From an uncultured delta proteobacterium (GTDB lineage Bacteria; Desulfobacterota; WTBG01; CAIYCZ01; CAIRTM01), in contig CAVRBJ010000022.1 in the NCBI GenBank assembly GCA_963718965.1, forward strand, positions 82,479 through 146,478: a stretch of DNA of 64,000 nucleotides. Reading direction: 5' to 3'. This document shows positions 13,728-61,419 of this stretch, piece after piece; the first letter of the stretch is position 1, and the number at the start of each line of letters is the position of its first letter. Under the pieces are notes generated by a model. That model was given only the letters and a program-made list of their open reading frames with translations, had not been told where the DNA came from and searched no databases. A program made the position numbers and the translations under genes.

Positions 13728-13747
13728 TTCTTCCCGGCATACCACAT

Positions 13748-13786
13748 ACAAAACCCCGAAGCATAAAATGCTTCGGGGTTTTGTAT
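13748..13786. terminator. Bidirectional intrinsic terminator (AAAACCCCGAAGCAT aaa ATGCTTCGGGGTTTTG)
   Basis: Perfect 15-bp stem flanked by A-run and T-run, between convergent genes. Confidence 0.65.
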
Positions 13787-14291: not shown

Positions 14292-15281
14292 TCACTTACC
14301 GGTATTCCAGAATGCCTGAAGCCTGACAAGCTCACCGTTTTTCCAGTAGCGGGCGTGCTTGCCCGTAAAGCCTGCAGCATACACATCTGCGCCGGACACA
14401 AAAATAGATTCGGAAAAAGAGAGCCAGGCAAGCTTTACCGGATCGCCGTTTTTCCAGTATTTCGCAGCAATGCCTTCATAGCCCGCTATATACACATCAT
14501 CGCCGGAGACGAAAATCGACTGGGCCGATGAATCTTTTCTGCCGTCGGTTAAAGCAACCTGCTCGCCGTTTTTCCAGTACCGCGCCGTGATAGTCCTGCC
14601 GAACTTCCGCTCATACCCGGCCACATGCACATCATCTCCCGAAACAAAGATTCCCGTTGCGGCGGCATCGCGGGAGCCATCGGTCAGATTATCGGACGCG
14701 CCATTTTTCCAGTAAGTTGCCGTAAAAGCTTTACCGTCTGATACGGAGCCTGCCACATACACATCATCCCCGGCTACATACAGGCTATAGGCGTAAGCAG
14801 CTTTTGTGCCGGTTGTCAGATTGACAAGCTCGCCGTTTTTCCAGTATTTTGCAGTATGTCCGTCATCGCCGGCAACATGCACATCATCTCCTGATATGAC
14901 TATTGAGCGGGCCGTCGCATTATTGCTTCCGCTGGTAAGGGCCACAGGGAGTCCGTTTTTCCAGTAGGTCGCCGTCTGCCCGTCATTGCCGGCCACATAC
15001 ACATCATCGCCGGAGACGACTATTGACCTTGCAGCAGCATTCCTGCTGCCATCGGTCAGTTCAACAAGAGTGCCGTTTTTCCAGTATGCGGCTATCGTTG
15101 ATTTGTAATTCCAGACTTTGCCTGCAACATAGACATCAGCCCCAGAGACAAAAATTGCCGTGGCAGTTGACTTGTAAGGTATGCGGCACGACGCGCACAA
15201 AAGCGCGAGCAGGGCGCAGCACAGAGGCAAAGCCGCACGGTACATACGAAAAAACCTGAGAAACCAATACTGTGTAACCAT
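14292..15281 (-). CDS. Lipoprotein with ~8 tandem 37-aa YWKNG/SBBP-like beta-propeller repeats
   Basis: Signal peptide and lipobox (LLCASC); repeating [35 protein letters not shown] units; SD AAGGAG 9 nt before the ATG at 15281. Confidence 0.7.
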
Positions 15282-15508
15282 TATATCCTGCTCCTTCCGG
15301 AAGGATAAAAATTTCCGTAAAATACTGTTATTGCTGAATTCTTTCTTAGTATAATAAACATAATCGTTCCGGTCAAGGGCGATGCGGTTCGATGCAGGTT
15401 CGGGCAGGCGCAGGGAGCAGGCGTAAGAGGCAGGAAAGCCCGTCCGTACAGCAAAACACCCGCACCGGAAAAAGGTACGGGTGCCCTGGTGCGGCATGGT
15501 GGTGTTTA

Positions 15509-16465
15509 TTAAAAGCCGTCCCGGGCAAGCTCCTCAAACAGCTTGCGCTGCTGCGGGGTGATATCCCGCGGTACGGCAACGCTTATCTGCACCAATTGGT
15601 CACCCTTGCCCGTTTTGCCGAAACGAGGGATACCATAGCCGCGAAGGCGCATCTTGGTGTTGTTCTGAATGCCTGCCGGCACCTTCATCTGCTTGGAATC
15701 CTGAAGGGTCGGCACCTCTATGGTCGTACCAAGCACCGCTTCGGAAAACTTTATCTCCCGGTTAAGGATGATGTCATCGCCATCGCGCTTGAAAAAAGGA
15801 TGCTCATGCACCTGAATGGTCAGATACAGGTCGCCGGGCGGCATGCCCGGCCCTGCCTCGCCGCCCTTACCGGTAAGGCGCAGCTTCTGGCCGGAGCTGA
15901 TGCCCGCCGGAATGCGCACCTTGACCTGCCTGCTGCTGCCGTCGAACATATAGTCGATTGTTTTCTCAGTGCCGTTTACGGCTTCGAGAAAATCGACAAA
16001 AAGATCCATGGTAAAGTCCTGGCCCTTCTGGGCATAGGCCTGACGTCCGCCGAAACCACCGCCGCCGCCAAAACCGCCGCTTCCGCTAAACAGATCCTCC
16101 AAATTGAAGGAACCGCCGCGCTGTCTGCCTCCTGCCCTGCCTCCTGCCCTGCCTCCTTCGCCGCCACCGCCGAAACCCATTTCCCTGAAAATATCATTAA
16201 TGTCGAAGCCCTTGAAAATGTCCTCCTGCGAGTAGCGCTGATGAAAGCCGCTGGAGCCGAACTGATCATACTGGCGCCGCTTTTTCTCATCGCTCAGCAC
16301 GGCATAGGCCTCATTTACTTCCTTGAAACGATCCTCCGACTTTTTATCGCCGGGATTTTTGTCGGGATGGTATTTAAAGGCAAGATTTTTGAAAGCCTTT
16401 TTTATATCATCCTGGGTAGCGGTTTTGTTGACCCCGAGGGTTTTGTAATAATCTTTTGCTGCCAT
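15509..16465 (-). CDS. J-domain co-chaperone, CbpA/DnaJ-like (no zinc-finger domain; Gly-rich linker)
   Basis: DYYKTLGV...KKAFKNLAFKYHPDKN J-domain with HPD; GGRAGGRAGG linker; DnaJ C-terminal domains; no CxxCxGxG repeats. Confidence 0.8.
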   Translation of the reverse strand: MAAKDYYKTLGVNKTATQDDIKKAFKNLAFKYHPDKNPGDKKSEDRFKEVNEAYAVLSDEKKRRQYDQFGSSGFHQRYSQEDIFKGFDINDIFREMGFGGGGEGGRAGGRAGGRQRGGSFNLEDLFSGSGGFGGGGGFGGRQAYAQKGQDFTMDLFVDFLEAVNGTEKTIDYMFDGSSRQVKVRIPAGISSGQKLRLTGKGGEAGPGMPPGDLYLTIQVHEHPFFKRDGDDIILNREIKFSEAVLGTTIEVPTLQDSKQMKVPAGIQNNTKMRLRGYGIPRFGKTGKGDQLVQISVAVPRDITPQQRKLFEELARDGF

Positions 16466-16474
16466 GCTTTCCCC

Positions 16475-18214
16475 TTAACGATATGATTCCTTTATAAGCC
16501 CATTTAAATAATCCTGCGGATTATCGATTGCCTGAGCGTCGATATCAAAAACGCCTCGGCCGGTCCTCTCCCGGATAAGCTTGAGGCCGTGCTGGTAGTT
16601 TGAAAACAGCTCGCGCAGCAGTTTGCCGGCATCGGCATCCTCAACAAGCGTGCGCCAGATCAGGCGATTAAGGGCCTGGTCCGTAAAGTGAATGCCGATG
16701 CCGTGGTGCCGGGAGAAGGCCTGCTCGTAGTCGCGCGCCTCCTCCGACACCAGAACGGACTCCTCCAGCACGGCAGCGCAGTCCATGCAGCAGGTAGATG
16801 CGATACGCACGATTGTGTCTATGAATATTTCGCTCAGCAGAAACAGGCACTGCGGATCCAGGCTCTCCCGGCGTTCAAGCATACGGGTTTTCAGGACATG
16901 CTCCTCTCGTGCAGAAAGCTCTTCATGGCGGGCATACATCTGCTCGAGCCCCTGGCCTGCCATGATGCGGTCAAATACGGAACCCGGGTCTGCTGCCATT
17001 TCAGCGCTGACCACGAGGCGGTTTATGTCGCTTGAAGGAAGCGCCTTCTCAAACTTCACAAGCACGCGCTCAAGGGCGCTTATCAGACCGCGAGCGCCCG
17101 TTTTTTCGCAAAAGGCAGCTTCGGCGATGGCACGCAGAGCCTTGTCTTCAAACCGCAGATCAATGCCGTAGGCAAAAAAATCCTTTTTTTTGCTCATAGC
17201 GACGGAACTTGCCGGGCTTTTCAATATCTGGTAGAGGTCATCTGCGCTCAGCGGATCAAACACTGCCACAACGGGCAGTCGGCCGATAAACTCCGATTCA
17301 AACCCGTAGCTCTGGAGGTCTTCGGCCTTGACCTCCCGCAGAAGGTGCTCGCGTCGGTTTGCCGTGCGCAGAGCAGCCTCGAAACCCAGGCCCTGACGGT
17401 TCAGCCGCTTTTCGATGATATCGTCAATATCGTTGAATGCGCCGCTCATGATAAATAAAATATTGCGCGTATTTATAATGCTTCGCTCCCGCTTGCCCGT
17501 GCGGCGGAACTGCTCAAGGGCCTCCATCTGGGAGACAACATCGTGGGGAACCTTCAAATCAACGTCCGTTTCCTCCATTGGCTTCAGCAGCGCCCGCTGA
17601 ACGCCCGTGCGCGACACGTCGAGGCCCCATCCGCCCCTGCTGCCGGCAATTTTGTCTATCTCATCGATATAGATGATGCCGTACTGCGCCCGCTTAATGT
17701 CTCCGCCCGATTCGCGCACCAGGTCGCGCACCAGGTCTTCCACATCGCCGCCCACATAGCCCGTCTCGCTGAACTTGGTTGCATCGCCCTTCACAAATGG
17801 AACGCCGAGTTTCTGTGCGATCAGCTTGATAAGAAATGTCTTGCCCACGCCGGTCGGACCGATCATAAGAATATTGTTCTTCACATTTCCGACGGCAGGT
17901 GACCGGTCCCGGCGGCTGACGCGGTTGAAGTGCGTGCAAATTTTGGTGGCAAGTATTTCCTTGGCCCTGCACTGCCCGATTGCATAGTCGTTGAGATATG
18001 CCTCGAGCTCCACGGGCTTCATGTTGAATGTGATATGCGGCCATCCCCCGGTATCTTTACCCTGTGGCGAGTCCTCAAGGCCTCCGGATATTTCATCAGT
18101 ATTGGGGAATGCCATAGGTGTGGCGAGTTTCACCCTGTCACCATATTTCTTGGACAAATAGTCATTGAGCTCTTTTTCAAGCTCACCCGGGCTTGGCAGT
18201 CTTTCCTTGGCCAT
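16475..18214 (-). CDS. ClpX-like AAA+ unfoldase paralog lacking the N-terminal zinc-binding domain, with a ~160-aa C-terminal extension
   Basis: Walker A ILMIGPTGVGKT, Walker B GIIYIDEIDKI, LGF (IGF-like) loop, sensor-2 KTGARGL; N-terminus MAKERLPSPGELEKEL without a CxxC zinc ribbon; SD GAGGAG before the ATG at 18214. Confidence 0.75.
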   Translation of the reverse strand: MAKERLPSPGELEKELNDYLSKKYGDRVKLATPMAFPNTDEISGGLEDSPQGKDTGGWPHITFNMKPVELEAYLNDYAIGQCRAKEILATKICTHFNRVSRRDRSPAVGNVKNNILMIGPTGVGKTFLIKLIAQKLGVPFVKGDATKFSETGYVGGDVEDLVRDLVRESGGDIKRAQYGIIYIDEIDKIAGSRGGWGLDVSRTGVQRALLKPMEETDVDLKVPHDVVSQMEALEQFRRTGKRERSIINTRNILFIMSGAFNDIDDIIEKRLNRQGLGFEAALRTANRREHLLREVKAEDLQSYGFESEFIGRLPVVAVFDPLSADDLYQILKSPASSVAMSKKKDFFAYGIDLRFEDKALRAIAEAAFCEKTGARGLISALERVLVKFEKALPSSDINRLVVSAEMAADPGSVFDRIMAGQGLEQMYARHEELSAREEHVLKTRMLERRESLDPQCLFLLSEIFIDTIVRIASTCCMDCAAVLEESVLVSEEARDYEQAFSRHHGIGIHFTDQALNRLIWRTLVEDADAGKLLRELFSNYQHGLKLIRERTGRGVFDIDAQAIDNPQDYLNGLIKESYR

Positions 18215-18244: not shown

Positions 18245-18407
18245 GTGTCTGAACAAAAAGTCATATCTTTGCAGGTTGTGTTAAGACCGGAAGAAACCGC
18301 TGGGTTTCGTACCTCAAACCAACCGCGCAAAAACAATTGCTTGTGAAAAAGTACAGGCATAAGGGCGAACCCGACAAATACATGGTTCCGGGTTTTCGTT
18401 CATCCAC
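18245..18407. mobile_element. MITE-like element, copy A (163 bp, terminal inverted repeats GTGTCTGAACAAAAAG / GTGGATGAACGAAAAC)
   Basis: ~85% identical (inverted orientation) to 61255-61419; ends are imperfect inverted repeats; no coding capacity. Confidence 0.6.
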
Positions 18408-18463
18408 TAACTACATGGTAAGCATCACCGGGTGTCGAGTCAAATTATTTATCATGCAGAGCG

Positions 18464-18499
18464 TTAAAAAAAGAGGCGTGCACCCTTAGATGCACGCCC
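18464..18499 (-). terminator. Candidate intrinsic terminator downstream of the TPR gene
   Basis: Minus-strand hairpin GGCGTGCA...TGCACGCC followed by CTCTTTTTTT. Confidence 0.45.
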
Positions 18500-18659: not shown

Positions 18660-19379
18660 CTATTTGCCTTTTTTGGGGCAGAGGCTGTCAACCTTGATCT
18701 GGGCAAACTGTTTCTGCCCGGACAGGGGGTTCTTTTCAAGGAACTCTTTATACTGATTGCAGGCCTTCTGCCTGTCGCCGGCCAATTCAAATACGCGGGC
18801 AAGATTCAGCGCAGCAGCACTCCCGCCATCAGACTGGGTATCGTTTTTCTGTTTTTCAAACCACTCTGCAGCCTGCTTAAAATCACCCTTTCCTTCAAAG
18901 GCATAGCCGATGCCCTCATAGCCTGCAGAGCGCAGATACTGAAGTGTTCCGTGGGCGGCATCAAGAAACTCCCTGAAATAGCCGATGGCTTCATCGTATT
19001 TTTTAAGGCTGTAGGCACAGTTACCCTCATACAGAAGGGCCATTGTGCCGGAGGTGGTGCTGCCATGCTTTTCCTTCACCTCTTTGAACTGAGCCAGGGC
19101 CTTTTCATACAGTGCCGTCTGAGCCCCGGCAGCCTTGCTGTCGGCAGGCGCCGTCATGGTGCTCATGGCGGCATAAAACATATTGAGGGAATCCCGCTCC
19201 GCCCGTGCCTTCATGGTGCTCCAGGCCAGAACTGCGGCAGCAACTACCATAACGGCGAGAGCGATGGAGCCGATTTGCCGGGCATTCTGCTCCACATACT
19301 CCCGTACAGTAATCCACAGTGTTATCGGGTTTTCAGCATCCATCAGTTTCTTCTTCGGCTTCACCTTAATCTTTGCCAT
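18660..19379 (-). CDS. Membrane-anchored TPR-repeat protein (YfgM-like)
   Basis: One N-terminal transmembrane helix followed by TPR-like repeats (YEKALAQFKEV..., EAIGYFREFLD...). Confidence 0.65.
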   Translation of the reverse strand: MAKIKVKPKKKLMDAENPITLWITVREYVEQNARQIGSIALAVMVVAAAVLAWSTMKARAERDSLNMFYAAMSTMTAPADSKAAGAQTALYEKALAQFKEVKEKHGSTTSGTMALLYEGNCAYSLKKYDEAIGYFREFLDAAHGTLQYLRSAGYEGIGYAFEGKGDFKQAAEWFEKQKNDTQSDGGSAAALNLARVFELAGDRQKACNQYKEFLEKNPLSGQKQFAQIKVDSLCPKKGK

Positions 19380-19464
19380 ACCTTAGCCGCCTCTCCTGCT
19401 GCTGTTAGTTCTTGTTCCCGTAATATGTCCAATACGGAAAACGTGCGCTGCGCTTTCCGCAATT

Positions 19465-20004
19465 TCAGTTTTCAGCCGTAAGATACGGCGCAAAGCGTTC
19501 ATATTTCTTCGGGCCGATACCTCCGACGTTTTTCAGCTCACCGATATTCCGAATGCCGCCGCTGCGGTCGCGGTAGTCGACTATAGCCTGTGCGGTGATC
19601 AAGCCCATACCGGGTATCAGCGCCAGTTCCTCAGCCGTTGCAGTTGCAAGGATTACCGGAAGGAAGCAGTGCATCCTCGCCTGGGCGCTCATGGACCCGA
19701 TGGAAACCTTCCCGTCGACAACAATTCTGCTGCCGTTTGGCACATTCCAGCTGCGAGCCGCTGCCTCCGGCAGGGGGGCCAGGGCTTCTCCCGCGTCAAG
19801 CAGCTGCCCCAGCTGTTGGGGGCTGCCATAGCTGTAGATGCCAGGCGACCGCACAGCGCCCGCAACTTCATAGGCATACTGCTTCCGCGGTGATTGCGGT
19901 GATACCGGCTCGCCCGGGGCCAGCACCTGCCAGCCGGCCCTGCACAGCATCAGCGCAAGCAGGGAGCATAGTACCATAAGCTGCTCTCTGTTGTACAGAG
20001 CCAT
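19465..20004 (-). CDS. ComEA-like helix-hairpin-helix DNA-binding protein
   Basis: C-terminal AEELALIPGMGLITAQAIVDYRDRSGGIRNIGELKNVGGIGPKKYERF HhH tandem. Confidence 0.8.
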   Translation of the reverse strand: MALYNREQLMVLCSLLALMLCRAGWQVLAPGEPVSPQSPRKQYAYEVAGAVRSPGIYSYGSPQQLGQLLDAGEALAPLPEAAARSWNVPNGSRIVVDGKVSIGSMSAQARMHCFLPVILATATAEELALIPGMGLITAQAIVDYRDRSGGIRNIGELKNVGGIGPKKYERFAPYLTAEN

Positions 20005-21594
20005 TTATTCAGCCTCTCCCTTAATCTCGTCTTTGAGCAGCTTGTAGGTGATGCTGTCGGTAAGGGCCTGCCAGCTTGCTTCGATAATATTTTCCGACAC
20101 GCCGACCGTGCCCCACCGGTCCTGCCGGTCACCGGTTTCGATGAGCACCCGCACCTTTGATGCCGTGCCTTCCCCTCCGGTCAGCACGCGCACCTTATAG
20201 TCGATGAGGTGCACCTGCTTCAGCTCGGGGTAGAACTTCTCAAGGGCCTTGCGCAGGGCATTGTCAAGAGCGTTCACCGGGCCATTGCCCATGGCTGCCG
20301 TATGCTCTATCTTGCCGCCTACTTTTACCATGATTGTTGCCTCGGACACGGGCTCGGCCTCTTCCTTTTTTTCATTGATGACACGAAACCCCACGAGGTC
20401 GAAATAGCGCTTCTTCACCCCCAGAGCCTTGCGCATGCGCAGCTCAAATGAAGCCTCGGCGCCTTCGAATTGAAACCCGTGGCGCTCCAGGTCTTTCAGG
20501 TCGGCAAGTATTTCCTTCACCAGCGGGTCGTGGCTTTCAATGTCGATATTAAACTGCTGGGCCTTCTGCAGGATATTGGCGCGGCCGGACTGGTCGGAAA
20601 CCAGTATCCGCTGCGTGTTGCCTACGCGCTCCGGGGATATATGCTCATAGGTATCGGAGCGGCGCTGAACAGCGCTCACATGCACGCCCGCCTTGTGCGC
20701 AAATGCGCTTGAGCCCACAAACGGCTGGTGCTTGTTGTGGGGCAGGTTGGCCAGTTCATAGACAAACCGCGAGAGCTCTGAAATTTTCCGCAGCTGCTCA
20801 TCGCTTATGCAGTCCATGCCCATCTTGATTTTCAGGTTGGGGATGATGGAGCAGAGGTTGGCATTGCCGCACCGCTCGCCGCAGCCATTGATGGTTCCCT
20901 GCACCTGCGTGCAGCCGCACTCAACTGCGGCAAGGCTGTTGGCAACGGCCAGATCGCTGTCATTGTGCGCATGAATGCCCAGGGGCGCGTCAATCTCCTG
21001 CCGCACGGCGCTGAGTATCCGGTGAATTTCATAGGGCAGCGTTCCGCCATTGGTGTCGCACAGCACCAGGCAGTCGGCGCCGCCGCTGAGGGCGCCGCGC
21101 AAAATGCTTATGGCATAGTCGGGGTGTGCCTTGTACCCGTCGAAAAAATGCTCGGCGTCGAAAAAAACTGTAGGCACATGCCGCTTGAGATAGGCTATCG
21201 ACTCCTGAATGAGCCGCAGGTTGTCATCAGGGGATATCCTGAGCACACCCTTTATATGCATGTCCCAGGACTTGCCGAAAATAGTCACGGCCTCTGTCCG
21301 GGCATTGATAAGATCGTTGAGGTTTTTATCTTTTTCAACCGCTGCGCCCGGCTTTGCCGTGCTGCCGAAGGCTGTAACGATTGCGTTTTTCAGGCGGCAG
21401 TTTTTGACTTCCTTGAAATACTGAAAATCCTTCGGGTTTGAGCCGGGCCAGCCGCCCTCGATATAGTGCATGCCAAGCTCGTCAAGCCGCTGCGTGATGC
21501 GAAGCTTATCCTCGATGGAAAAGGAAATATCTTCGGTCTGGTTGCCTTCCCTGAGCGTTGCGTCATAGAGACAAATCTGCTTCATAGTATGCAT
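20005..21594 (-). CDS. cimA: (R)-citramalate synthase / 2-isopropylmalate synthase-family enzyme
   Basis: [27 protein letters not shown]..., HMGL-like TIM barrel plus LeuA dimer regulatory domain; 529 aa. Confidence 0.85.
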
Positions 21595-45765: not shown

Positions 45766-46056
45766 GTTGATATATAGAGGTCTGTATAACACAGGGATTC
45801 CCCACAAAATGCAGAACGAGGGTTTATATATTGACAATATTTGTATAATTTGAAATAAGCGCCATAGGCTAGAGTTCGGGAAATACAGATGTCTGTATAA
45901 TGTATGTTAATCTATGAGAGATGAAAAATGCCAAAAAGGATCAAATAAGGGATAACCTATATGAGACTTTTGCCAAAAATCTTTCTGCCATAAAAAGAGG
46001 AGACTTTTGTTCATTTCGAGCCAAACATAGAAAATTGTTATATCTGTCCTTTATGT

Positions 46057-46910
46057 GTGAGGTGCTTTACAAAAAATGCCCTAGATCAGGGAAAGCCTAA
46101 TTGCCTGACGATTGAAGATATTCCTCCAAGAGCATTAGGTGGTAGACCATTGGCTTTAACATGCAAACAATGCAATAACAAATCAGGTACTTTATTGGAT
46201 GAACAGTTAAGGAGAAAACTAGCAACTGAGGAATTCGTACTAAAAATACCAGATGCCCATGTTGAAGCATCAATAAAATTTAAGTCGAAGCTTTATACAT
46301 CAGGGACTTTGAGCCACCGAGTTGATGGGGGGCTACAATATTTGTCTTTTCAAAAATGGGTTTCAAACAAAAAAGGGAAAGGGCAAATGCTTCTCAAAAT
46401 TGGAAAGAAAATCTTAGAGTTAATGGAATCAAAGATTTTAAGTTTTCGATAAAAACTTATAAAAAAAATCATCCCAATATTGCTCTTCTCCGTATAGCCT
46501 ATCTTTTAACGTTTAGCAAATTCGGAAATGGGTTTCTTTTTAATCCAAACCTAAATATCATTAGAAAACAAATTCAAAATCCAACTCAAAATATATTACC
46601 GAATTTTGGGGTTTTGGAATTAGAGAATCCATTTAACTCAGGTATATATGTTATTGTAAGCCCAATTGAGTTACGGTCTTTTTTGGTAATATTTTGTTTA
46701 AAAACAAAAAATAGAACAACTAAACATGCTGTAATCTTACCCGGTCCAGATGAATGTTGCATGGAAGTTTACACTAATATGGCTAATCACCAGAAAACCA
46801 ATGGTGGTTTAAAGTTCAATGGAGAACTAATACCATCACTTGATTATCTTAATGATGCACGTCTTAAATTTGCACCTCAGATATTCTGGGACATGCTAAA
46901 TAATGTTTAA
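46057..46910 (+). CDS. AT-rich hypothetical protein with an N-terminal CxxC...C zinc-ribbon-like motif and an HNH-like (E-D-I...C-x2-C-N) motif; one frameshift
   Basis: In-frame upstream NCYICPLCVRCF; IEDIPPRALGGRPLALTCKQCNNKSG resembles the HNH core but lacks the His-His dyad; pieces 46057-46452 and 46356-46910. Confidence 0.4.
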
Positions 46911-46962
46911 CAAAATCACTTCACCCGCTCCGCTCCGGCGGGTGAGCTTTTCATTAAACGTA
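46908..46962. repeat. Imperfect 55-bp palindrome (GTTTAAC...CACCCGC tccgctccg GCGGGTG...TTAAAC), an attC-like or terminator hairpin
   Basis: Left arm GTTTAACAAAATCACTTCACCCGC versus the reverse complement of the right arm GTTTAATGAAAAGCTCACCCGC; 21-nt core shared with 49443-49480. Confidence 0.4.
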
Positions 46963-46981
46963 AAAAGGAAACGACGACAAG

Positions 46982-47731
46982 ATGGAAGAGAGTAGATCGA
47001 GACATATTATAGAACTCGCTAAAGAATTATTGGATGACATTGAACTGAACAGGATCAGTGCTGAGCAACTTTTGTTAAAAGCTAGCAGACTTGCGAGGTG
47101 GATGGGCTCGGAGGAAATCCAACAATGGTTGAAGCTTGAAATGACTGGCTACGACAATAGCAAGGTGGCCCTCAAATATATGTCAATAACTGGCAGGTGG
47201 ACGGACAGAGAAAAAGGAATGGGATACTGGGGGGCCACTAGCCCAACAGGAAGCTACAATACAGGCTCAGAAAGCCAAACTAGCCAGTATGAGAACGCCC
47301 GATATAGGTGGCGACTACGCGAACATTGCCATCACAAATGTTACAAACACGATGAATGCGACAGCAAATCATATTTCTACGTTCAGCGCGATAAAAAGCA
47401 GGGTACTTGCACAGCTTCATCAATTCGTTAGTGAAGTTTATTACAGTCTGTATTTGAAGGATTATCGGAATCAATCTTTGAACGATACAAACGGGACGTG
47501 GATATTCTCATAGCAGAGTCGTGCGGCACAGTTCTAACGCAGATTGCTACCGTTATGGACCGGCTCGTCGAGGGGGATATAGAGGCAATCAGCCAGGCGC
47601 TAACAACGTGCCGTCGTATAATTGAAAGCTTTGCTGATTCTGTTTTCCCACCCAGTGATGAACCAATCGAAATCGGCGGGAATATTCTCAACTTGGGCGC
47701 AGATAAGCATCAGAATAGAATGAATGCCTAA
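46982..47731 (+). CDS. AT-rich hypothetical protein, three frame pieces
   Basis: MEESRSRHIIELAKELLDDIELNRISAEQLLLKASRLARWMGSEE... ; no confident family. Confidence 0.35.
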
Positions 47732-48112
47732 GTTCATCAGCATTCAGAGAGCCAAACGCGGAAGAAACGATTGAGACAGAATCTCTCCAATCTTTTTAAC
47801 AGGGTATCTACGGGTGTGCATAGCGATATTACACCAGAAGAAGCAAGGGCATTATTCTTGAACACATATTTGCTTCTGGGCGAAGTCTTGCATCTGGGAA
47901 AAAAAGACGTTTAACTACCACATACAGCCGACCTCGTACCTCGGCGGCCGATGCAAGCGTTGGGTGGCGCGATTAGATAAATATAAATAAACAACAAATT
48001 GATCAGGTGGGCAGAGATAGTATTTACCTGACACTACCGCCCCTAGCGGCCCCCAAAAAACGTGGCTCCGGAGCACTTACAGAAACTAAACGGAATCAAG
48101 CGCATAGGACCA

Positions 48113-48150
48113 CTTTTTTGGAGCCATCCTGGCCGAATGGCTCCAAAAAA
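48113..48150. terminator. Bidirectional terminator-like hairpin (TTTTTTGGAGCCAT cctggccga ATGGCTCCAAAAAA)
   Basis: Perfect 8-bp stem flanked symmetrically by T6 and A6. Confidence 0.6.
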
Positions 48151-48236
48151 GTTTGTTCAGGAAATAAAAGCCCGGGAGGAAACTGACCTGACTTTCTGAA
48201 GGCTTCCCTAAACTCAAGAGAAAAGGAGCTCCTTGT

Positions 48237-49259
48237 ATGAAATCGAAATTTATGAAAATTATGGCATCTGTTTTTTGTGTCCTCATCATTGGCATGGCGT
48301 TGGGGTATCATTTCATAACATACACACCGCACGGGCGCATGGATTTTTCATCTGGGCTTGTTGTGCGAATTGTAGGTTTTTTCGGCAGTGAGAAAAAAAC
48401 ATCCGACTATACGCCAGAAGAATTTAGAAAAAGAATGGATGGAATAATTCTTCGTGGCCAGAAAAAAATTGAACAGGTAAACAAGGTGGAGGATAAAGAG
48501 ATTGCATGGACCGCAGGCACTATACCCATTAGGATTTACAAACATTCCGATAATAGCCGATTACCAGTCATTATTTACTTTCATGGTGGAGGCTGGGCCT
48601 CAGGATCCATAGCTACTCATGATAGCCTTTGCAGAAAGCTGGCAAAAGTTTCAAATACAACCGTACTATCGGTTGGATATGGACTGGCGCCTGAGGTGAA
48701 ATTCCCAACTCCTCTTGAACAGGGCTATGCGGTCTTGCAATGGGTTGTTGGTAATGCAGTCGATTTGGATATTGATATTAATAAAATTATCCTGGCAGGC
48801 GACAGTGCAGGAGCAACGATTGCCACAGCACTGTGCATGATGTCCAGAGACAGAAACGGTCCGGTTATCAGGTATCAAATACTGTTATACCCCGTAACTA
48901 ATTTGTCCAGCTTTTCAACACCGTCTCACAGGAATTTTGGAAAAGGATATTTATTAACAACAGAATCACTTGAATGGCTGCGGGGGCTGTATTTGAGCAG
49001 CGATGCTGAAAAGACAAATCCCCTGGTTTCACCTCTTCTTGCAAAAAATCTGGGTAAGCTGCCTCCGGCTTTTATTGTCACCGCTCAGTTTGATCCACTC
49101 AATTCAGACGGAAAAGCCTATTATGAAACGCTCAAGGCTGCCGGCAATGATTGCAGATATGAAAATATGCCGGGTGTTTTACATGGATTTATGCAAACAG
49201 AATCTTCAAGGGCAGACGATGTTTTCAGTATGATTGCCCAAATATGTCGTGGTTTATAG
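48237..49259 (+). CDS. Alpha/beta-hydrolase fold-3 esterase/lipase
   Basis: HGGGW oxyanion motif and GDSAGA nucleophile elbow; N-terminal transmembrane/signal segment. Confidence 0.85.
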   Translation: MKSKFMKIMASVFCVLIIGMALGYHFITYTPHGRMDFSSGLVVRIVGFFGSEKKTSDYTPEEFRKRMDGIILRGQKKIEQVNKVEDKEIAWTAGTIPIRIYKHSDNSRLPVIIYFHGGGWASGSIATHDSLCRKLAKVSNTTVLSVGYGLAPEVKFPTPLEQGYAVLQWVVGNAVDLDIDINKIILAGDSAGATIATALCMMSRDRNGPVIRYQILLYPVTNLSSFSTPSHRNFGKGYLLTTESLEWLRGLYLSSDAEKTNPLVSPLLAKNLGKLPPAFIVTAQFDPLNSDGKAYYETLKAAGNDCRYENMPGVLHGFMQTESSRADDVFSMIAQICRGL

Positions 49260-49442
49260 CCGTAATAAATCTTAGCGCTATACTCCGAGCTGCAGAGCAA
49301 GCGCTGCCCTTTGGTTCAAGGTTCACTGCATGTTAATAAAATACACAAACGCCATCTCAGTCCGAAGGGCGGGTGCTAAACCGCCGAATTTAACATGAAT
49401 CACCTGAACAGGAGCGCCCAACGTGGCGCTGCACAGGACGTA

Positions 49443-49480
49443 GTTCCGCTTCGCTCCGGCGGGTGACCTTCTCGTTATGA
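49443..49480. repeat. Cassette-end repeat CCGCTTCGCTCCGGCGGGTGACCTTCTCGTT
   Basis: 21-nt core nearly identical to 46924-46948 (CCGCTCCGCTCCGGCGGGTGAGCTTTTC). Confidence 0.4.
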
Positions 49481-49503
49481 AAAAAATCTTGATTTGCTAC
49501 TCA

Positions 49504-49527
49504 TTTTGATCTATATTTAGATCAAAA
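49504..49527 (+). promoter_or_regulatory. Operator-like palindrome TTTTGATCTA tatt TAGATCAAAA upstream of the second toxin-antitoxin pair
   Basis: Perfect 10-bp inverted repeat 27 bp before the antitoxin ATG. Confidence 0.45.
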
Positions 49528-49553
49528 AATGAGTCTAAATAAGGAGCTATACT

Positions 49554-49838
49554 ATGAAGACCATTTCCATTACTAATGACATTGTCCCTATTGCCGAATT
49601 CAAGGTAGGCATCTCCAAGTGGTTCAAGAGCCTCAAGATTACCGGTCACCCCCTGATCATTACGCAAAATGGGAAACCAGCCGGCGTACTTTTATCACCG
49701 GGCGACTATGATGATCTGGTATATAAAAAATATTTTCTTGATTCCATCGGCAGAGGAATATCTGATGCTGAAAGCGGAAAAACCTATCATACTGAAGAGG
49801 TGCGTGCGGCATTAACCGCAAGAAGAAGTAAGAGATAA
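49554..49838 (+). CDS. Type II antitoxin (Phd/YefM- or ParD-like)
   Basis: 94 aa, immediately upstream of a ParE-family toxin. Confidence 0.6.
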   Translation: MKTISITNDIVPIAEFKVGISKWFKSLKITGHPLIITQNGKPAGVLLSPGDYDDLVYKKYFLDSIGRGISDAESGKTYHTEEVRAALTARRSKR

Positions 49839-49844
49839 GTCCTG

Positions 49845-50141
49845 ATGAAAATCAGATGGACACATGAGGCCCTTGAGCGATTAATCGAAATTGAAGAGTA
49901 TATTTCAAAAGACAGTCCGGGCCGTGCTGTTCAATTTGTTGAAGAACTTATTGAACACGCGGAATTATTACCCGACAAACCACGTATGGGCAGGGCAGTC
50001 CCCGAACTCGCTAACCCCGACATACGAGAACTGCTATTTAAAAAATATCGTATTGTCTATAGGCTTAAAGCAAATTGCATCGAAATACTGACCGTTTTTG
50101 AAGGACACAGAATCCTTCGTATTGATGAATGCGATGTTTAA
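49845..50141 (+). CDS. Type II toxin, RelE/ParE family
   Basis: 98 aa; ...DIRELLFKKYRIVYRLKANCIEILTVFEGHR. Confidence 0.75.
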   Translation: MKIRWTHEALERLIEIEEYISKDSPGRAVQFVEELIEHAELLPDKPRMGRAVPELANPDIRELLFKKYRIVYRLKANCIEILTVFEGHRILRIDECDV

Positions 50142-50182
50142 TAAATGAAAACACAGCTGCGCTATCATAACGAATCACAGCA

Positions 50183-50222
50183 GCCGACCGCTTTCAGCGG
50201 CGGCTGACCTTTGCGTTCCAGC
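50183..50222. repeat. GC hairpin CAGCCGaCCGC tttca GCGGCGGCTG + ACCTTTGCGTT at the island boundary
   Basis: Tail CGGCGGsTGAsCTTT shared with the hairpins at 46924 and 49443. Confidence 0.4.
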
Positions 50223-60775: not shown

Positions 60776-61254
60776 AATTGCGCAATTCTGTGTTTGAAGT
60801 ATGGCTGCCTCATGCTTAATGTGCTCCAGTTACATCTTTCGAACCAGCACATCACCGATATTCCGGCCTTGGGCATTCATCCACAGCTGAAAACTATGCA
60901 GACAATCAAACATTTCCATAGCACCTGCCTTGAAGAATGAAAAAAAATAAATTTTTTTTTATTTTTTGACCTTATATGACAAAACCGGCGGCTATAAGGG
61001 AGACATACAATAACCTTATGTGGAGGCCGTATGAGACAGTATCTGTATCTTTTTTGGGGGTTGGTGCTTGCGGGAATGCTTATTCTAACAGCGGCATACC
61101 CGGAGTGCCGTCAGGCAGCCGCCCTGCAGTATCCTGCAAACCGCGACTATGCAGTGTATGACCAGAACGGTGATCGAATGCTCGTGAGCGGCGCTTATCT
61201 GGAGGCTCAGATAAGCGCTGAGGGAAAGCGGGCAGGCCAAACCCGGTTTTAAGT

Positions 61255-61419
61255 AGTGGCTGAATGAAAACCCGGAACCATACATTTGTTGGGTTCGCCC
61301 TTATGCCGGTACTTCTTCGTAAGGAATTGTTTTTGCGCAGGTTGGTTTGAGGTACGAAACCCAACGGTTTCTTCCGGGCTTAACCCAACCTACACATACA
61401 TGACTTTTCGTTCAGACAC
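61255..61419. mobile_element. MITE-like element, copy B (terminal inverted repeats GTGGCTGAATGAAAAC / GTGTCTGAACGAAAAG)
   Basis: ~85% identical over ~140 bp to the reverse complement of 18245-18407. Confidence 0.6.

What the first reader, a model, noticed from the sequence alone, without database searches (positions are those of the whole stretch)
15509..18214. ClpX paralog without zinc-binding domain, with a C-terminal extension, co-oriented with a CbpA-type J-protein
The 16475-18214 product has the complete ClpX AAA+ core (Walker A/B, LGF docking loop, sensor-2 KTGARGL). It replaces the N-terminal C4 zinc ribbon with an unrelated ~60-aa segment and adds ~160 aa after the AAA module. Ten bp downstream sits a DnaJ-like protein with J-domain and C-terminal substrate-binding domains but no zinc-finger domain (CbpA-like). 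This looks like a dedicated, possibly ClpP-coupled, unfoldase/co-chaperone pair distinct from housekeeping ClpX, which is not in this window. Its promoter region is occupied by the MITE-like element.
Basis: partly seen in the sequence, partly recalled or inferred. Interest (0 to 1): 0.6.

Follow-up and report, generated by a model that had tools for sequence, protein, structure and literature searches.

The report
Second ClpX-type unfoldase with J-protein partner
This is a real two-gene operon encoding an unstudied relative of the protein-unfolding motor ClpX, which lacks ClpX's zinc domain and carries a duplicated "lid" domain at its tail, followed by a DnaJ-like co-chaperone. The motor belongs to a large family found in many bacterial phyla whose job is unknown.

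Summary
Window 16475-18214(-) encodes a 579-aa ClpX-like AAA+ ATPase. Nine bases downstream, 15509-16465(-) encodes a 318-aa class-B (CbpA-like) J-protein with no zinc finger.

The ATPase keeps Walker A/B, the GYVG pore loop, the arginine finger, sensor-2 and the ClpP-docking [I/L]GF loop. It has no zinc-binding domain and no RKH loop, and it scores below both curated ClpX cut-offs.

New here:
- The C-terminal extension is a helical linker plus a second, degenerate AAA+ lid domain.
- The protein belongs to a conserved, uncharacterised family. The ~580-aa form occurs in at least 592 Thermodesulfobacteriota species genomes. A ~520-aa form occurs in Verrucomicrobia, Planctomycetes, Chlamydiota, Acidobacteria and Spirochaetes.
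- Two relatives carry a canonical zinc-finger ClpX on the same contig, so it is a true paralog.
- The J-protein pairing is conserved only in the window's clade (33 of 44 loci). The sister clade instead has ahbC-hemB-ahbA (heme synthesis) downstream.

Most likely it is a hexameric unfoldase, probably ClpP-coupled, that receives clients through the J-protein/Hsp70 system. The ClpP and J-protein steps are inferred. I rate it a new variant of a known kind, of moderate to good interest.

The parts
16475..18214 (-). Gene for the 579-aa ZBD-less, tandem-lid ClpX-like AAA+ ATPase
   Evidence: ORF. Pfam and NCBIfam hits. More than 120 full-length homologues at 54-92% identity. The best structural matches are all ClpX, with target-normalised TM-score up to 0.86 over about 345 columns.
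18023..18214 (-). N-terminal region (aa 1-64) that replaces the zinc-binding domain. It holds a conserved amphipathic helix motif (aa 9-25, ELEKELNDYLSKKYG) followed by a variable disordered linker.
   Evidence: No Cys and no Pfam hit. The motif is conserved in both the ~580-aa and ~520-aa subfamilies. AF2 predicts a helix at aa 9-24, and aa 29-60 have pLDDT below 50.
17258..18022 (-). AAA+ large domain (aa 65-319), containing Walker A 17837-17860, GYVG pore-1 loop 17750-17761, Walker B 17654-17677, LGF docking loop 17381-17389 and arginine finger FIGRL 17276-17290
   Evidence: Alignment to solved ClpX chains. Motifs are invariant or nearly invariant in 238 family members. Coordinates verified.
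17477..17569 (-). 31-aa basic, partly helical segment (TDVDLKVPHDVVSQMEALEQFRRTGKRERSI) at the position of the ClpX pore-2/RKH loop. It is 11 aa longer than in ClpX and has no RKH.
   Evidence: Gap of 11 residues in the alignment to ClpX. The length of 31 aa is conserved in both subfamilies. AF2 predicts a helix at aa 226-239.
17000..17257 (-). First (functional) lid/small domain, aa 320-405, with sensor-2 TGARG at 17087-17101
   Evidence: Pfam ClpB_D2-small at aa 323-385. Alignment to ClpX. Coordinates verified.
16775..16999 (-). Helical linker (aa 406-480). It is 75 aa long in the Desulfobacterota subfamily and only about 15 aa in relatives from other phyla.
   Evidence: AF2 model of the C-terminus, pLDDT 93.7, with helices in this stretch. 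Length comparison. No PDB sequence or fold match for this part.
16478..16774 (-). Second, degenerate lid-like domain (aa 481-579). It lacks the sensor-2 GARG and carries the conserved motif Y-x-H-G-L-K-L-I.
   Evidence: hhalign of lid1 against this region gives probability 95.5%, E 1.3e-8. In Foldseek the top matches are ClpX chains over about 76 columns, rmsd 2.6-3.2 A, probability about 1.0, E about 0.1; HslU chains also match, but more loosely. The motif is conserved in both subfamilies.
16466..16474 (-). 9-nt intercistronic spacer GGGGAAAGC, which carries the ribosome-binding site of the J-protein gene
   Evidence: Sequence read directly. The spacing is 12-63 nt in most related loci and 9-10 nt in the closest relatives.
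15509..16465 (-). Gene for a 318-aa class-B (CbpA-like) J-protein: J-domain 16265-16453 (HPD), Gly/Phe-rich linker 16010-16264, DnaJ_C 15569-16009. No zinc finger.
   Evidence: Pfam DnaJ and DnaJ_C. Below the cut-offs of the DnaJ and CbpA equivalog models. Coordinates verified.
18415..18443 (-). Sigma-70-like promoter candidate, TTGACT-17-TACCAT, upstream of the operon
   Evidence: Consensus scan, 9 of 12 positions match. This is a pattern match only.
18474..18499 (-). Intrinsic-terminator-like hairpin plus T-run that ends the upstream TPR gene and separates it from the operon
   Evidence: 11-bp stem with 7 G-C pairs, followed by CTTTTTTT.
18245..18409 (.). MITE-like repeat of about 165 nt lying between the promoter candidate and the start codon, so probably within the 5' UTR. 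Terminal inverted repeats are GTGGATGAACGAAAA and TTTTTGTTCAGACAC.
   Evidence: Second copy at 61254-61419 with 88.6% identity. RNA fold -50.8 kcal/mol, z = -2.2. In the 74%-identical relative the same intergenic gap is 199 bp, against 445 bp here.

Best explanation
The window carries a bicistronic operon.

**What is shown.** The first gene encodes a member of a conserved but uncharacterised sister family of ClpX. Members have a full ClpX-type AAA+ motor. An N-terminal helix motif stands in place of the zinc-binding domain, a longer basic segment stands in place of the RKH loop, and the C-terminal module consists of a helical linker plus a duplicated, nucleotide-blind lid domain. The second gene encodes a class-B J-protein (J-domain, G/F linker and two C-terminal client-binding domains, with no zinc finger).

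**What is inferred.**
- The ATPase forms a hexameric ring that grips and translocates polypeptides with its GYVG loops.
- It docks onto ClpP through its conserved [I/L]GF loops, so it unfolds clients for degradation.
- Client choice depends not on ZBD/RKH contacts but on the N-terminal helix and the peripheral C-terminal tandem-lid module.
- In this clade the co-transcribed J-protein captures non-native clients. It hands them over either directly or through DnaK. This would make a stress or quality-control route parallel to housekeeping ClpXP.
For: **Motor identity**
- Pfam and NCBIfam hits.
- 41-42% identity to canonical ClpX across the core.
- The best structural matches are all ClpX chains.
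- All catalytic and pore motifs, and the [ILMV]GF loop, are conserved in 238 of 238 family members from several phyla.

**Distinct family**
- It is below the ClpX cut-offs.
- It aligns end to end with the ~520-aa relatives (330-380 bits), against 241 bits over the core only with ClpX.
- At least 592 species genomes carry it.
- Canonical zf-C4 ClpX lies on the same contig in L002 and L013.

**Tandem lid**
- hhalign gives probability 95.5%.
- Foldseek matches the ClpX small domain.
- The AF2 model has pLDDT 93.7.

**Operon**
- The gap is 9 nt and contains a ribosome-binding site.
- A terminator lies upstream.
- The J-protein gene sits immediately downstream in 33 of 44 clade members, in three or more flank contexts, in the three nearest relatives, and in an independent metagenome sample (L089).

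**Precedent (established knowledge)**
- ClpB/Hsp104-type AAA+ motors cooperate with the DnaK-DnaJ system.
- In Thermus, dnaJ and clpB share an operon.
Against: - There is no experimental datum for any family member.
- ClpP docking rests only on loop conservation. No clpP gene lies near the gene in any of about 120 loci examined.
- The J-protein pairing is absent from the sister clade and from other phyla. The family's core function therefore cannot depend on this J-protein.
- No heat-shock regulatory motif (CIRCE, sigma-32 or sigma-54) was found upstream.
- The presence of a canonical ClpX in this very genome was not verified.
Confidence: 0.5

Rival explanations
1. The protein is a ClpP-independent remodelling chaperone. 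It partially unfolds specific clients and releases them rather than degrading them, as yeast mitochondrial ClpX (Mcx1) does with ALA synthase. It may work with the J-protein/DnaK system here and with heme-pathway enzymes in the sister clade.
For: - No clpP gene is nearby in any locus.
- The sister clade has ahbC, hemB and ahbA directly downstream on the same strand in 36 of 41 loci, and again in the metagenome sample.
- An operon partner that is a co-chaperone fits a chaperone role.
Against: The [ILMV]GF loop is strictly conserved across the family. By established knowledge, ClpX homologues that work without ClpP (yeast Mcx1) have lost this loop. Such conservation is hard to explain without a docking partner.
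Confidence: 0.25
2. The adjacency has no mechanistic meaning. The J-protein is a general CbpA-like co-chaperone of DnaK that merely shares a transcript with an unrelated ClpX-like protease subunit.
For: - The pairing is limited to one clade.
- 11 of 44 members of that clade lack it.
- The wider family functions without it.
Against: Tight spacing of 9-63 nt is retained through 50-60% protein divergence and through changes of both flanks. Both products act on non-native proteins.
Confidence: 0.15
3. The natural protease partner is not ClpP but an ATP-independent LonC-type protease. The ClpX-like ATPase would supply the unfolding activity that LonC lacks.
For: - In 11 related loci (L003 and L004 hold the same protein) the order is ClpX-like, J-protein, LonC-like.
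- That LonC-like protein has a degenerate Walker A (GLAGTGRFT), has no DE Walker B, and keeps an intact GDSAS protease site.
Against: - There is no LonC-like gene in this window.
- LonC is present in one subclade only.
- The LGF loop is a ClpP-cleft ligand.
- The gaps of 160-205 bp between the J-protein gene and lonC suggest separate transcription.
Confidence: 0.05
4. It is simply this organism's divergent housekeeping ClpX, that is, the only clpX in the genome.
For: No canonical clpX or clpP is in the 64-kb window. The genome itself could not be searched.
Against: - Relatives carry both genes on one contig (L002, L013).
- The family is as distant from ClpX (about 41% identity) in every lineage as it is here.
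- It lacks the ZBD and RKH in all 238 members.
- PGAP names it 'AAA family ATPase', not ClpX.
Confidence: 0.03

Closest known systems
Bacterial ClpX (E. coli ClpX; PDB 6WRF, 3HWS and others)
   Same: - AAA+ large and small domains, 41-42% identity over about 340 residues.
- GYVG pore-1 loop, Walker A/B, arginine finger and sensor-2.
- IGF-type ClpP-docking loop.
- Best structural match.
   Different: - No C4 zinc-binding domain.
- No RKH loop; a 31-aa basic segment takes its place.
- An extra 170-aa C-terminal module (helical linker plus second lid).
- A conserved N-terminal helix motif.
- Below the curated ClpX cut-offs.
- Not next to clpP.
Myxococcus xanthus ClpX3 (MXAN_2743; PMC11423568)
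   Same: - An extra, non-essential ClpX paralog that lacks the N-terminal zinc domain and the RKH motif.
- About 43% identical to E. coli ClpX.
- The mutant is heat-sensitive.
   Different: ClpX3 is only 356 aa (Table S1), so it has no C-terminal tandem-lid module. It is isolated in the genome with no J-protein partner mentioned. On architecture it is not a member of this family.
Mitochondrial ClpX (yeast Mcx1, human CLPX)
   Same: - A ClpX-type motor with accessory elements on the substrate-facing side that select clients.
- A functional link to heme biosynthesis (ALAS). The ahbC-hemB-ahbA synteny of the sister clade echoes this.
   Different: - The mitochondrial insertion sits near the start of the AAA+ domain, not at the C-terminus.
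- Human CLPX keeps an N-domain.
- Similarity is lower (173 bits, in two separate stretches).
- The heme link here is synteny only, and it is in relatives, not in this window.
E. coli CbpA / class-B J-domain proteins
   Same: The partner protein has a J-domain with HPD, a G/F-rich linker and DnaJ_C client-binding domains, with no zinc-finger domain.
   Different: - It scores 159.6 bits against the CbpA cut-off of 403.
- There is no cbpM-like modulator gene downstream.
- It is paired with an AAA+ ATPase instead.
ClpB/Hsp104-DnaK-DnaJ bi-chaperone system
   Same: An AAA+ translocase genetically linked to a J-protein. By established knowledge, Thermus dnaJ and clpB share an operon. A helical accessory module sits on the ATPase periphery.
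   Different: - This protein has a single AAA+ ring of ClpX type.
- It retains a ClpP-docking loop.
- The helical module is C-terminal rather than a middle domain.
- Cooperation with DnaK is not shown.

Membership tests
ClpX (NCBIfam PRK05342 / TIGR00382 equivalogs) | Whole-protein score at or above the curated cut-off | tested here: not met
   306.7 bits against a cut-off of 359, and 275.3 bits against 370.75. The match covers aa 65-409 only.
ClpX | N-terminal C4 zinc-binding domain (zf-C4_ClpX) | tested here: not met
   No Pfam hit. No Cys in aa 1-64. Members of the family have 0-1 Cys in this region across all 238 sequences.
ClpX | AAA+ module with Walker A/B, GYVG pore-1 loop, arginine finger and sensor-2 | tested here: met
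   All are present and conserved. Structural match to ClpX has target-normalised TM-score up to 0.86.
ClpX | IGF-type ClpP-docking loop | tested here: met
   LGF at aa 276-278. [ILMV]GF is present in 238 of 238 family members.
ClpX | RKH loop at the pore entrance | tested here: not met
   It is replaced by TDVDLKVPHDVVSQMEALEQFRRTGKRERSI, which is 11 aa longer and has no RKH.
ClpX | Physical docking to ClpP and activation of ClpP | not testable with these tools
   This needs biochemistry or complex modelling. No clpP gene is in the window or in about 120 related loci.
HslU | Score above the cut-off, and an I-domain inserted in the AAA+ module | tested here: not met
   158.7 bits against a cut-off of 362.45, in three fragments. 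No I-domain-sized insertion is seen in the alignment or the model.
Tandem-lid ZBD-less ClpX-like family (defined here, unnamed) | Five features together: the N-terminal ..KKYG helix motif, C(T/D)H(F/Y)N, a 31-aa pore-2 segment, [ILMV]GF, and a C-terminal second lid with Y-x-[HY]-G-L-x-L-I | tested here: met
   The window protein has all five. It aligns end to end with members from other phyla.
CbpA (NCBIfam PRK10266) | Whole-protein score at or above the cut-off | tested here: not met
   159.6 bits against a cut-off of 403.
Class-B J-domain protein (architecture) | J-domain with HPD, G/F-rich linker and DnaJ_C domains, with no zinc-finger domain | tested here: met
   Pfam DnaJ at aa 5-67 and DnaJ_C at aa 153-299, with no other domain. 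The sequence was read directly.
DnaJ (class A, TIGR02349) | Cys-rich zinc-finger domain, and score at or above the cut-off | tested here: not met
   285.4 bits against a cut-off of 377.2. The match is split in two around the missing zinc finger.
MITE (upstream repeat) | Short, non-coding and multi-copy, with terminal inverted repeats and target-site duplication | tested here: inconclusive
   Two copies in the window at 88.6% identity, and terminal repeats matching at 12 of 15 positions. No target-site duplication was identified, and the genome-wide copy number is unknown.

The most novel reading that the evidence does not exclude
The tandem-lid, ZBD-less ClpX-like proteins are an ancient, pan-bacterial second ClpX lineage with its own way of recognising clients, through the N-terminal helix and the C-terminal linker/lid module.

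In sulfate-reducing Desulfobacterota this lineage has been wired into two different pathways. In one clade it is linked to the Hsp70 system through a dedicated class-B J-protein. In the other it is linked to the siroheme-dependent heme pathway (AhbC, HemB, AhbA).

The second link would make it a bacterial counterpart of the control that mitochondrial ClpX exerts over heme synthesis. In a subclade it may also act as the missing unfoldase for an ATP-independent LonC protease.
Probability: 0.15. Interest if true: 0.8.

Novelty: new variant of a known kind. Interest (0 to 1): 0.55.

Why it matters
ClpX is among the best-understood protein-unfolding machines, and its client selection is explained largely by the zinc-binding domain, the RKH loops and adaptors.

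This locus points to a large family that keeps the motor and the ClpP-docking loop but has swapped every known specificity element. The family occurs in hundreds of Desulfobacterota species and in several other phyla, and is annotated only as 'AAA family ATPase'.

If the operon partnership is functional, it would be an example of a J-protein/Hsp70 system feeding a ClpX-type unfoldase or protease. The heme-cluster synteny in the sister clade suggests a testable link between regulated unfolding and the alternative heme pathway of anaerobes.

The duplicated lid domain is also an unusual AAA+ architecture and would be worth a structure.

Tried and rejected
- **Heat-shock control.** CIRCE, sigma-32-like and sigma-54-like motifs were sought in the 350 bp upstream of 82 family genes. 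There was no consistent hit, and none in the window.
- **Rfam.** A scan of 13-20 kb found nothing above the gathering score near the operon.
- **Defence system.** PADLOC gave only generic P-loop matches at 18-21 bits.
- **Sequence search of the C-terminus against the PDB.** Only chance-level viral Bcl-2 hits, E about 1.
- **C-terminus in other architectures.** phmmer against 1.8 billion representatives gave 226 hits. Nine of the ten checked had the same AAA_2 plus D2-small architecture or were fragments of it. The exception, P0216 (1228 aa), matched neither domain and was not followed up. No clearly different architecture was identified.
- **M. xanthus ClpX3 as a characterised member.** Rejected, because it is only 356 aa.
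- **Mitochondrial insertion as the equivalent of the pore-2 segment.** Rejected, because that insertion lies near the N-terminus of the AAA+ domain.
- **Promoter and MITE comparison with close relatives.** The contigs of the relatives at 74-84% identity had no DNA on file. The metagenome scan found nothing closer than 61% identity.
- **Cluster look-up for organism names.** It added nothing.
- **Literature.** Searches for a described ZBD-less ClpX with a C-terminal extension, or for a ClpX-Ahb link, found none.
Full report
**1. Observation**

The minus strand of 15509-18214 holds two tightly packed ORFs.

The upstream ORF is 16475-18214, 579 aa counted from the ATG at 18214. That ATG follows a GAGGAG ribosome-binding site, and homologues start at the same place.
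- Pfam finds AAA_2 at aa 113-315 and ClpB_D2-small at aa 323-385.
- The best NCBIfam model is ClpX: PRK05342 at 306.7 bits and TIGR00382 at 275.3 bits.
- Those matches cover only aa 65-409, and both are below the curated cut-offs of 359 and 370.75.
- phmmer against the PDB aligns aa 67-405 to ClpX chains, E about 1e-68 to 1e-70.
- The AlphaFold model's best structural matches are all ClpX, with target-normalised TM-score up to 0.86 over about 345 columns at about 40% identity.

Verified motifs and coordinates:

| Motif | Coordinates |
|---|---|
| Walker A GPTGVGKT | 17837-17860 |
| GYVG | 17750-17761 |
| Walker B IIYIDEID | 17654-17677 |
| LGF | 17381-17389 |
| FIGRL | 17276-17290 |
| TGARG | 17087-17101 |

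There is no zinc-ribbon hit, and aa 1-64 contain no cysteine.

The downstream ORF is 15509-16465, 318 aa. It has a J-domain with HPD, a Gly/Phe-rich linker and DnaJ_C, with no zinc finger. It scores below the DnaJ and CbpA equivalog cut-offs.

The junction reads TAA-GGGGAAAGC-ATG, a 9-nt gap. The window holds no other ClpX, ClpP, DnaK, J-protein, LonC or ahb gene.

**2.

*N-terminus.*
- aa 9-25 form a predicted helix, ELEKELNDYLSKKYG.
- The motif is conserved across the whole family: LEKELN.YL.KKYG in the ~580-aa forms and LR.DMEEFFS.KYG in the ~520-aa forms.
- A variable, disordered linker follows.
- The N-terminus is therefore a conserved element rather than filler.

*Pore-2/RKH position.*
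- ClpX has ...VPPQGGRKHPQQEF... here.
- This protein has a 31-aa basic, partly helical segment that is 11 residues longer and has no RKH.
- Its length is conserved family-wide.

*C-terminal extension.*
- Modelled alone it is very confident: pLDDT 93.7, pTM 0.84.
- Its second half (aa about 481-579) aligns by profile-profile comparison to the protein's own lid domain. Lid aa 346-405 match aa 501-561 with probability 95.5% and E 1.3e-8.
- Foldseek independently returns ClpX chains as the closest matches over about 76 columns, rmsd 2.6-3.2 A and probability about 1.0. E is only about 0.1 because the match is short. HslU chains also appear, but less tightly aligned.
- The sensor-2 GARG is not retained in this second lid.
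- The extension therefore consists of a helical linker (aa 406-480) plus a second, degenerate lid.

**3. The family**
- A search of 5.8 billion proteins returned more than 120 full-length relatives of 575-629 aa at 54-92% identity. Where they are named, the name is 'AAA family ATPase' from Desulfobacterota MAGs, or an automatic ClpX label.
Nearly all of the 80 best are Thermodesulfobacteriota or 'delta' lineages: Syntrophales-like, Syntrophobacterales, Desulfobacterales, Desulfatiglandales, Desulfobaccales, Desulfarculaceae and Desulfomonile. One is a MAG labelled Spirochaetaceae.
- The C-terminal module alone hits 226 cluster representatives. Nine of the ten checked have the same architecture or are fragments of it. 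One 1228-aa hit (P0216) matched neither domain and was not followed up.
- Some hits are shorter forms of about 515-550 aa. A search seeded with one of them shows a large sister subfamily in Verrucomicrobia, Planctomycetes, Chlamydiota, Acidobacteria, Spirochaetes, Poribacteria and others.
- These shorter forms align end to end with the window protein at 36-46% identity and 330-380 bits. Canonical ClpX aligns only through the core, at 241 bits.
- Across 238 sequences of both subfamilies the following are invariant or nearly so: Walker A/B, GYVG, [ILMV]GF, the arginine finger, sensor-2, C(T/D)H(F/Y)N, the N-motif and the lid-2 motif.
- The two subfamilies differ mainly in the linker, which is 75 aa against 15 aa.

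**4. Paralogy**
- In L002 and L013 a canonical zf-C4 ClpX (417 aa in L002) lies within 7 kb of the family member.
- The L002 canonical ClpX is 41% identical to the window protein.
- The family therefore coexists with true ClpX. The source genome itself could not be searched.

**5. Gene neighbourhoods**

A neighbour-joining tree of 84 loci plus the window, rooted on canonical ClpX, splits the Desulfobacterota subfamily in two.

*Window's clade (44 entries).*
- 33 entries, the window included, have the J-protein gene 12-140 nt downstream on the same strand.
- The pairing occurs in at least three flanking contexts: CimA-ComEA-TPR upstream as in the window; a LonC-like gene downstream; and others.
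- Gene maps of the three closest relatives examined (74-84% identity) show the same pair with 9-10 nt spacing.

*Sister clade (41 entries).*
- None has the J-protein. In 36 of them the next genes on the same strand are a radical-SAM enzyme and/or HemB.
- The radical-SAM enzyme is identified as AhbC (TIGR04546, 749.5 bits against a cut-off of 650).
- HemB is identified by Pfam ALAD (E 6.7e-154).
- AhbA is identified by NF040708 (165 bits against a cut-off of 140).
- Sources for this clade.

*Other samples.*
- An independent metagenome sample repeats both patterns.
- The ~520-aa relatives in other phyla show neither pattern.
- No clpP gene is adjacent anywhere.

*LonC subclade.*
- In 11 loci (L003 and L004 hold the same protein) the pair is followed by a LonC-like protease.
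- That protein has a degenerate Walker A (GLAGTGRFT), no DE Walker B, and an intact GDSAS active site.

**6. Transcription unit in the window**
- The upstream TPR gene ends in a strong terminator-like hairpin at 18499-18474.
- A TTGACT-17-TACCAT promoter candidate follows at 18443-18415.
- Between that candidate and the start codon lies a repeat of about 165 nt, 18245-18409.
  - It has imperfect terminal inverted repeats.
  - A second copy lies at 61254-61419, 88.6% identical.
  - As RNA it folds into a long hairpin of -50.8 kcal/mol, z = -2.2.
- The same intergenic gap is 199 bp in a 74%-identical relative, against 445 bp here. That is consistent with an insertion.
- Downstream of the J-protein gene, a 225-bp gap with its own promoter-like site precedes an unrelated lipoprotein gene.
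- The unit is therefore bicistronic.
- No CIRCE, sigma-32 or sigma-54 motif was found.

**7. Mechanism**

Shown:
- A ClpX-type motor with every catalytic, pore and docking motif intact.
- Loss of both known ClpX specificity elements, the ZBD and the RKH loop.
- Gain of a conserved N-helix and a linker plus second lid.
- Operon linkage to a class-B J-protein that is conserved in one clade.

Inferred:
- Hexameric translocase activity.
- ClpP docking through the LGF loop.
- Client delivery by the J-protein, directly or through DnaK.

I put about 0.5 on this combined picture. The main rival, at 0.25, is a ClpP-independent remodelling role. The heme-cluster synteny and the absence of any nearby clpP favour that rival. 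The strict conservation of the docking loop argues against it. Lesser rivals are coincidental adjacency (0.15), LonC as the partner (0.05) and divergent housekeeping ClpX (0.03).

**8. Comparison with what is known**
- The protein works like ClpX but fails membership on three defining features that were tested: the curated score, the ZBD and the RKH loop.
- The only studied bacterial ZBD-less, RKH-less ClpX paralog I found is M. xanthus ClpX3, which gives a heat-sensitive mutant (PMC11423568). It is 356 aa and so lacks the tandem-lid module.
- Mitochondrial ClpX offers a functional parallel through heme and ALAS (PMC12970495), but its architecture is different.
- The partner protein is class-B (CbpA-like) by architecture but is not a CbpA equivalog, and no cbpM gene is present.
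- I found no paper describing this family.

**9. Verdict**

It is not an artefact and not ordinary housekeeping ClpX. It is a new variant of a known kind: an uncharacterised, widely distributed ClpX sister family with a duplicated lid. In this clade it is operon-linked to a J-protein. Interest is 0.55.

Noticed in passing
window 18245-18409 and 61254-61419: MITE-like repeat of about 165 nt. The two copies are 88.6% identical and in opposite orientation. Imperfect 15-nt terminal inverted repeats are GTGGATGAACGAAAA and TTTTTGTTCAGACAC. As RNA it folds into a long hairpin. One copy sits in the probable 5' UTR of the ClpX-like operon.
   Followed up: partly
related loci, for example L078:12053-13234, L052:13070-14044, L068:4187-4636: In the sister clade of the family, the ClpX-like gene is followed on the same strand by ahbC (12,18-didecarboxysiroheme deacetylase), hemB and ahbA, which belong to the alternative heme pathway. 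This holds in 36 of 41 loci, and again in metagenome loci L090-L104.
   Followed up: partly
related loci, for example L011:12850-15339, L003:11044-13548: A LonC-like protease with a degenerate Walker A (GLAGTGRFT), no Walker B and an intact GDSAS active site follows the ClpX-like/J-protein pair in 11 loci (L003 and L004 hold the same protein). This places an ATPase-dead protease next to a protease-less ATPase.
   Followed up: partly
L002:14981-16234 and L013:3111-4133: The canonical zf-C4 ClpX in these relatives lies within 7 kb of the paralog. In L002 it is not adjacent to a clpP gene.
   Followed up: no
window 13746-13786: A perfect 19-bp inverted repeat with a 3-nt loop (ATACAAAACCCCGAAGCAT / ATGCTTCGGGGTTTTGTAT) lies between two convergent genes. 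It is probably a bidirectional terminator. It produced sub-threshold Rfam hits on both strands.
   Followed up: partly
window 14292-15284 (-): A lipoprotein-like ORF of about 330 aa with a lipobox (LLCASC) and 8 repeats ending in YWKNG. It has no convincing Pfam or NCBIfam family. A protein of the same size, also without a family, follows the J-protein gene in a close relative.
   Followed up: no
window 46000-50200: A low-GC stretch (0.40-0.44, against about 0.53 elsewhere). It includes a possible alpha/beta-hydrolase-like ORF at 48237-49259 and two small adjacent ORFs at 49554-50141 that look like an antitoxin/toxin pair. These function guesses come from reading the translations only; no family search was run. 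The stretch may be a horizontally acquired island.
   Followed up: no
window 18660-21594 (-): The upstream block of citramalate synthase (CimA, TIGR00977, 788 bits), a ComEA-like HHH protein and a TPR protein is syntenic with the ClpX-like/J-protein pair in several relatives (L001, L005-L007, L021, L026, L038).
   Followed up: partly
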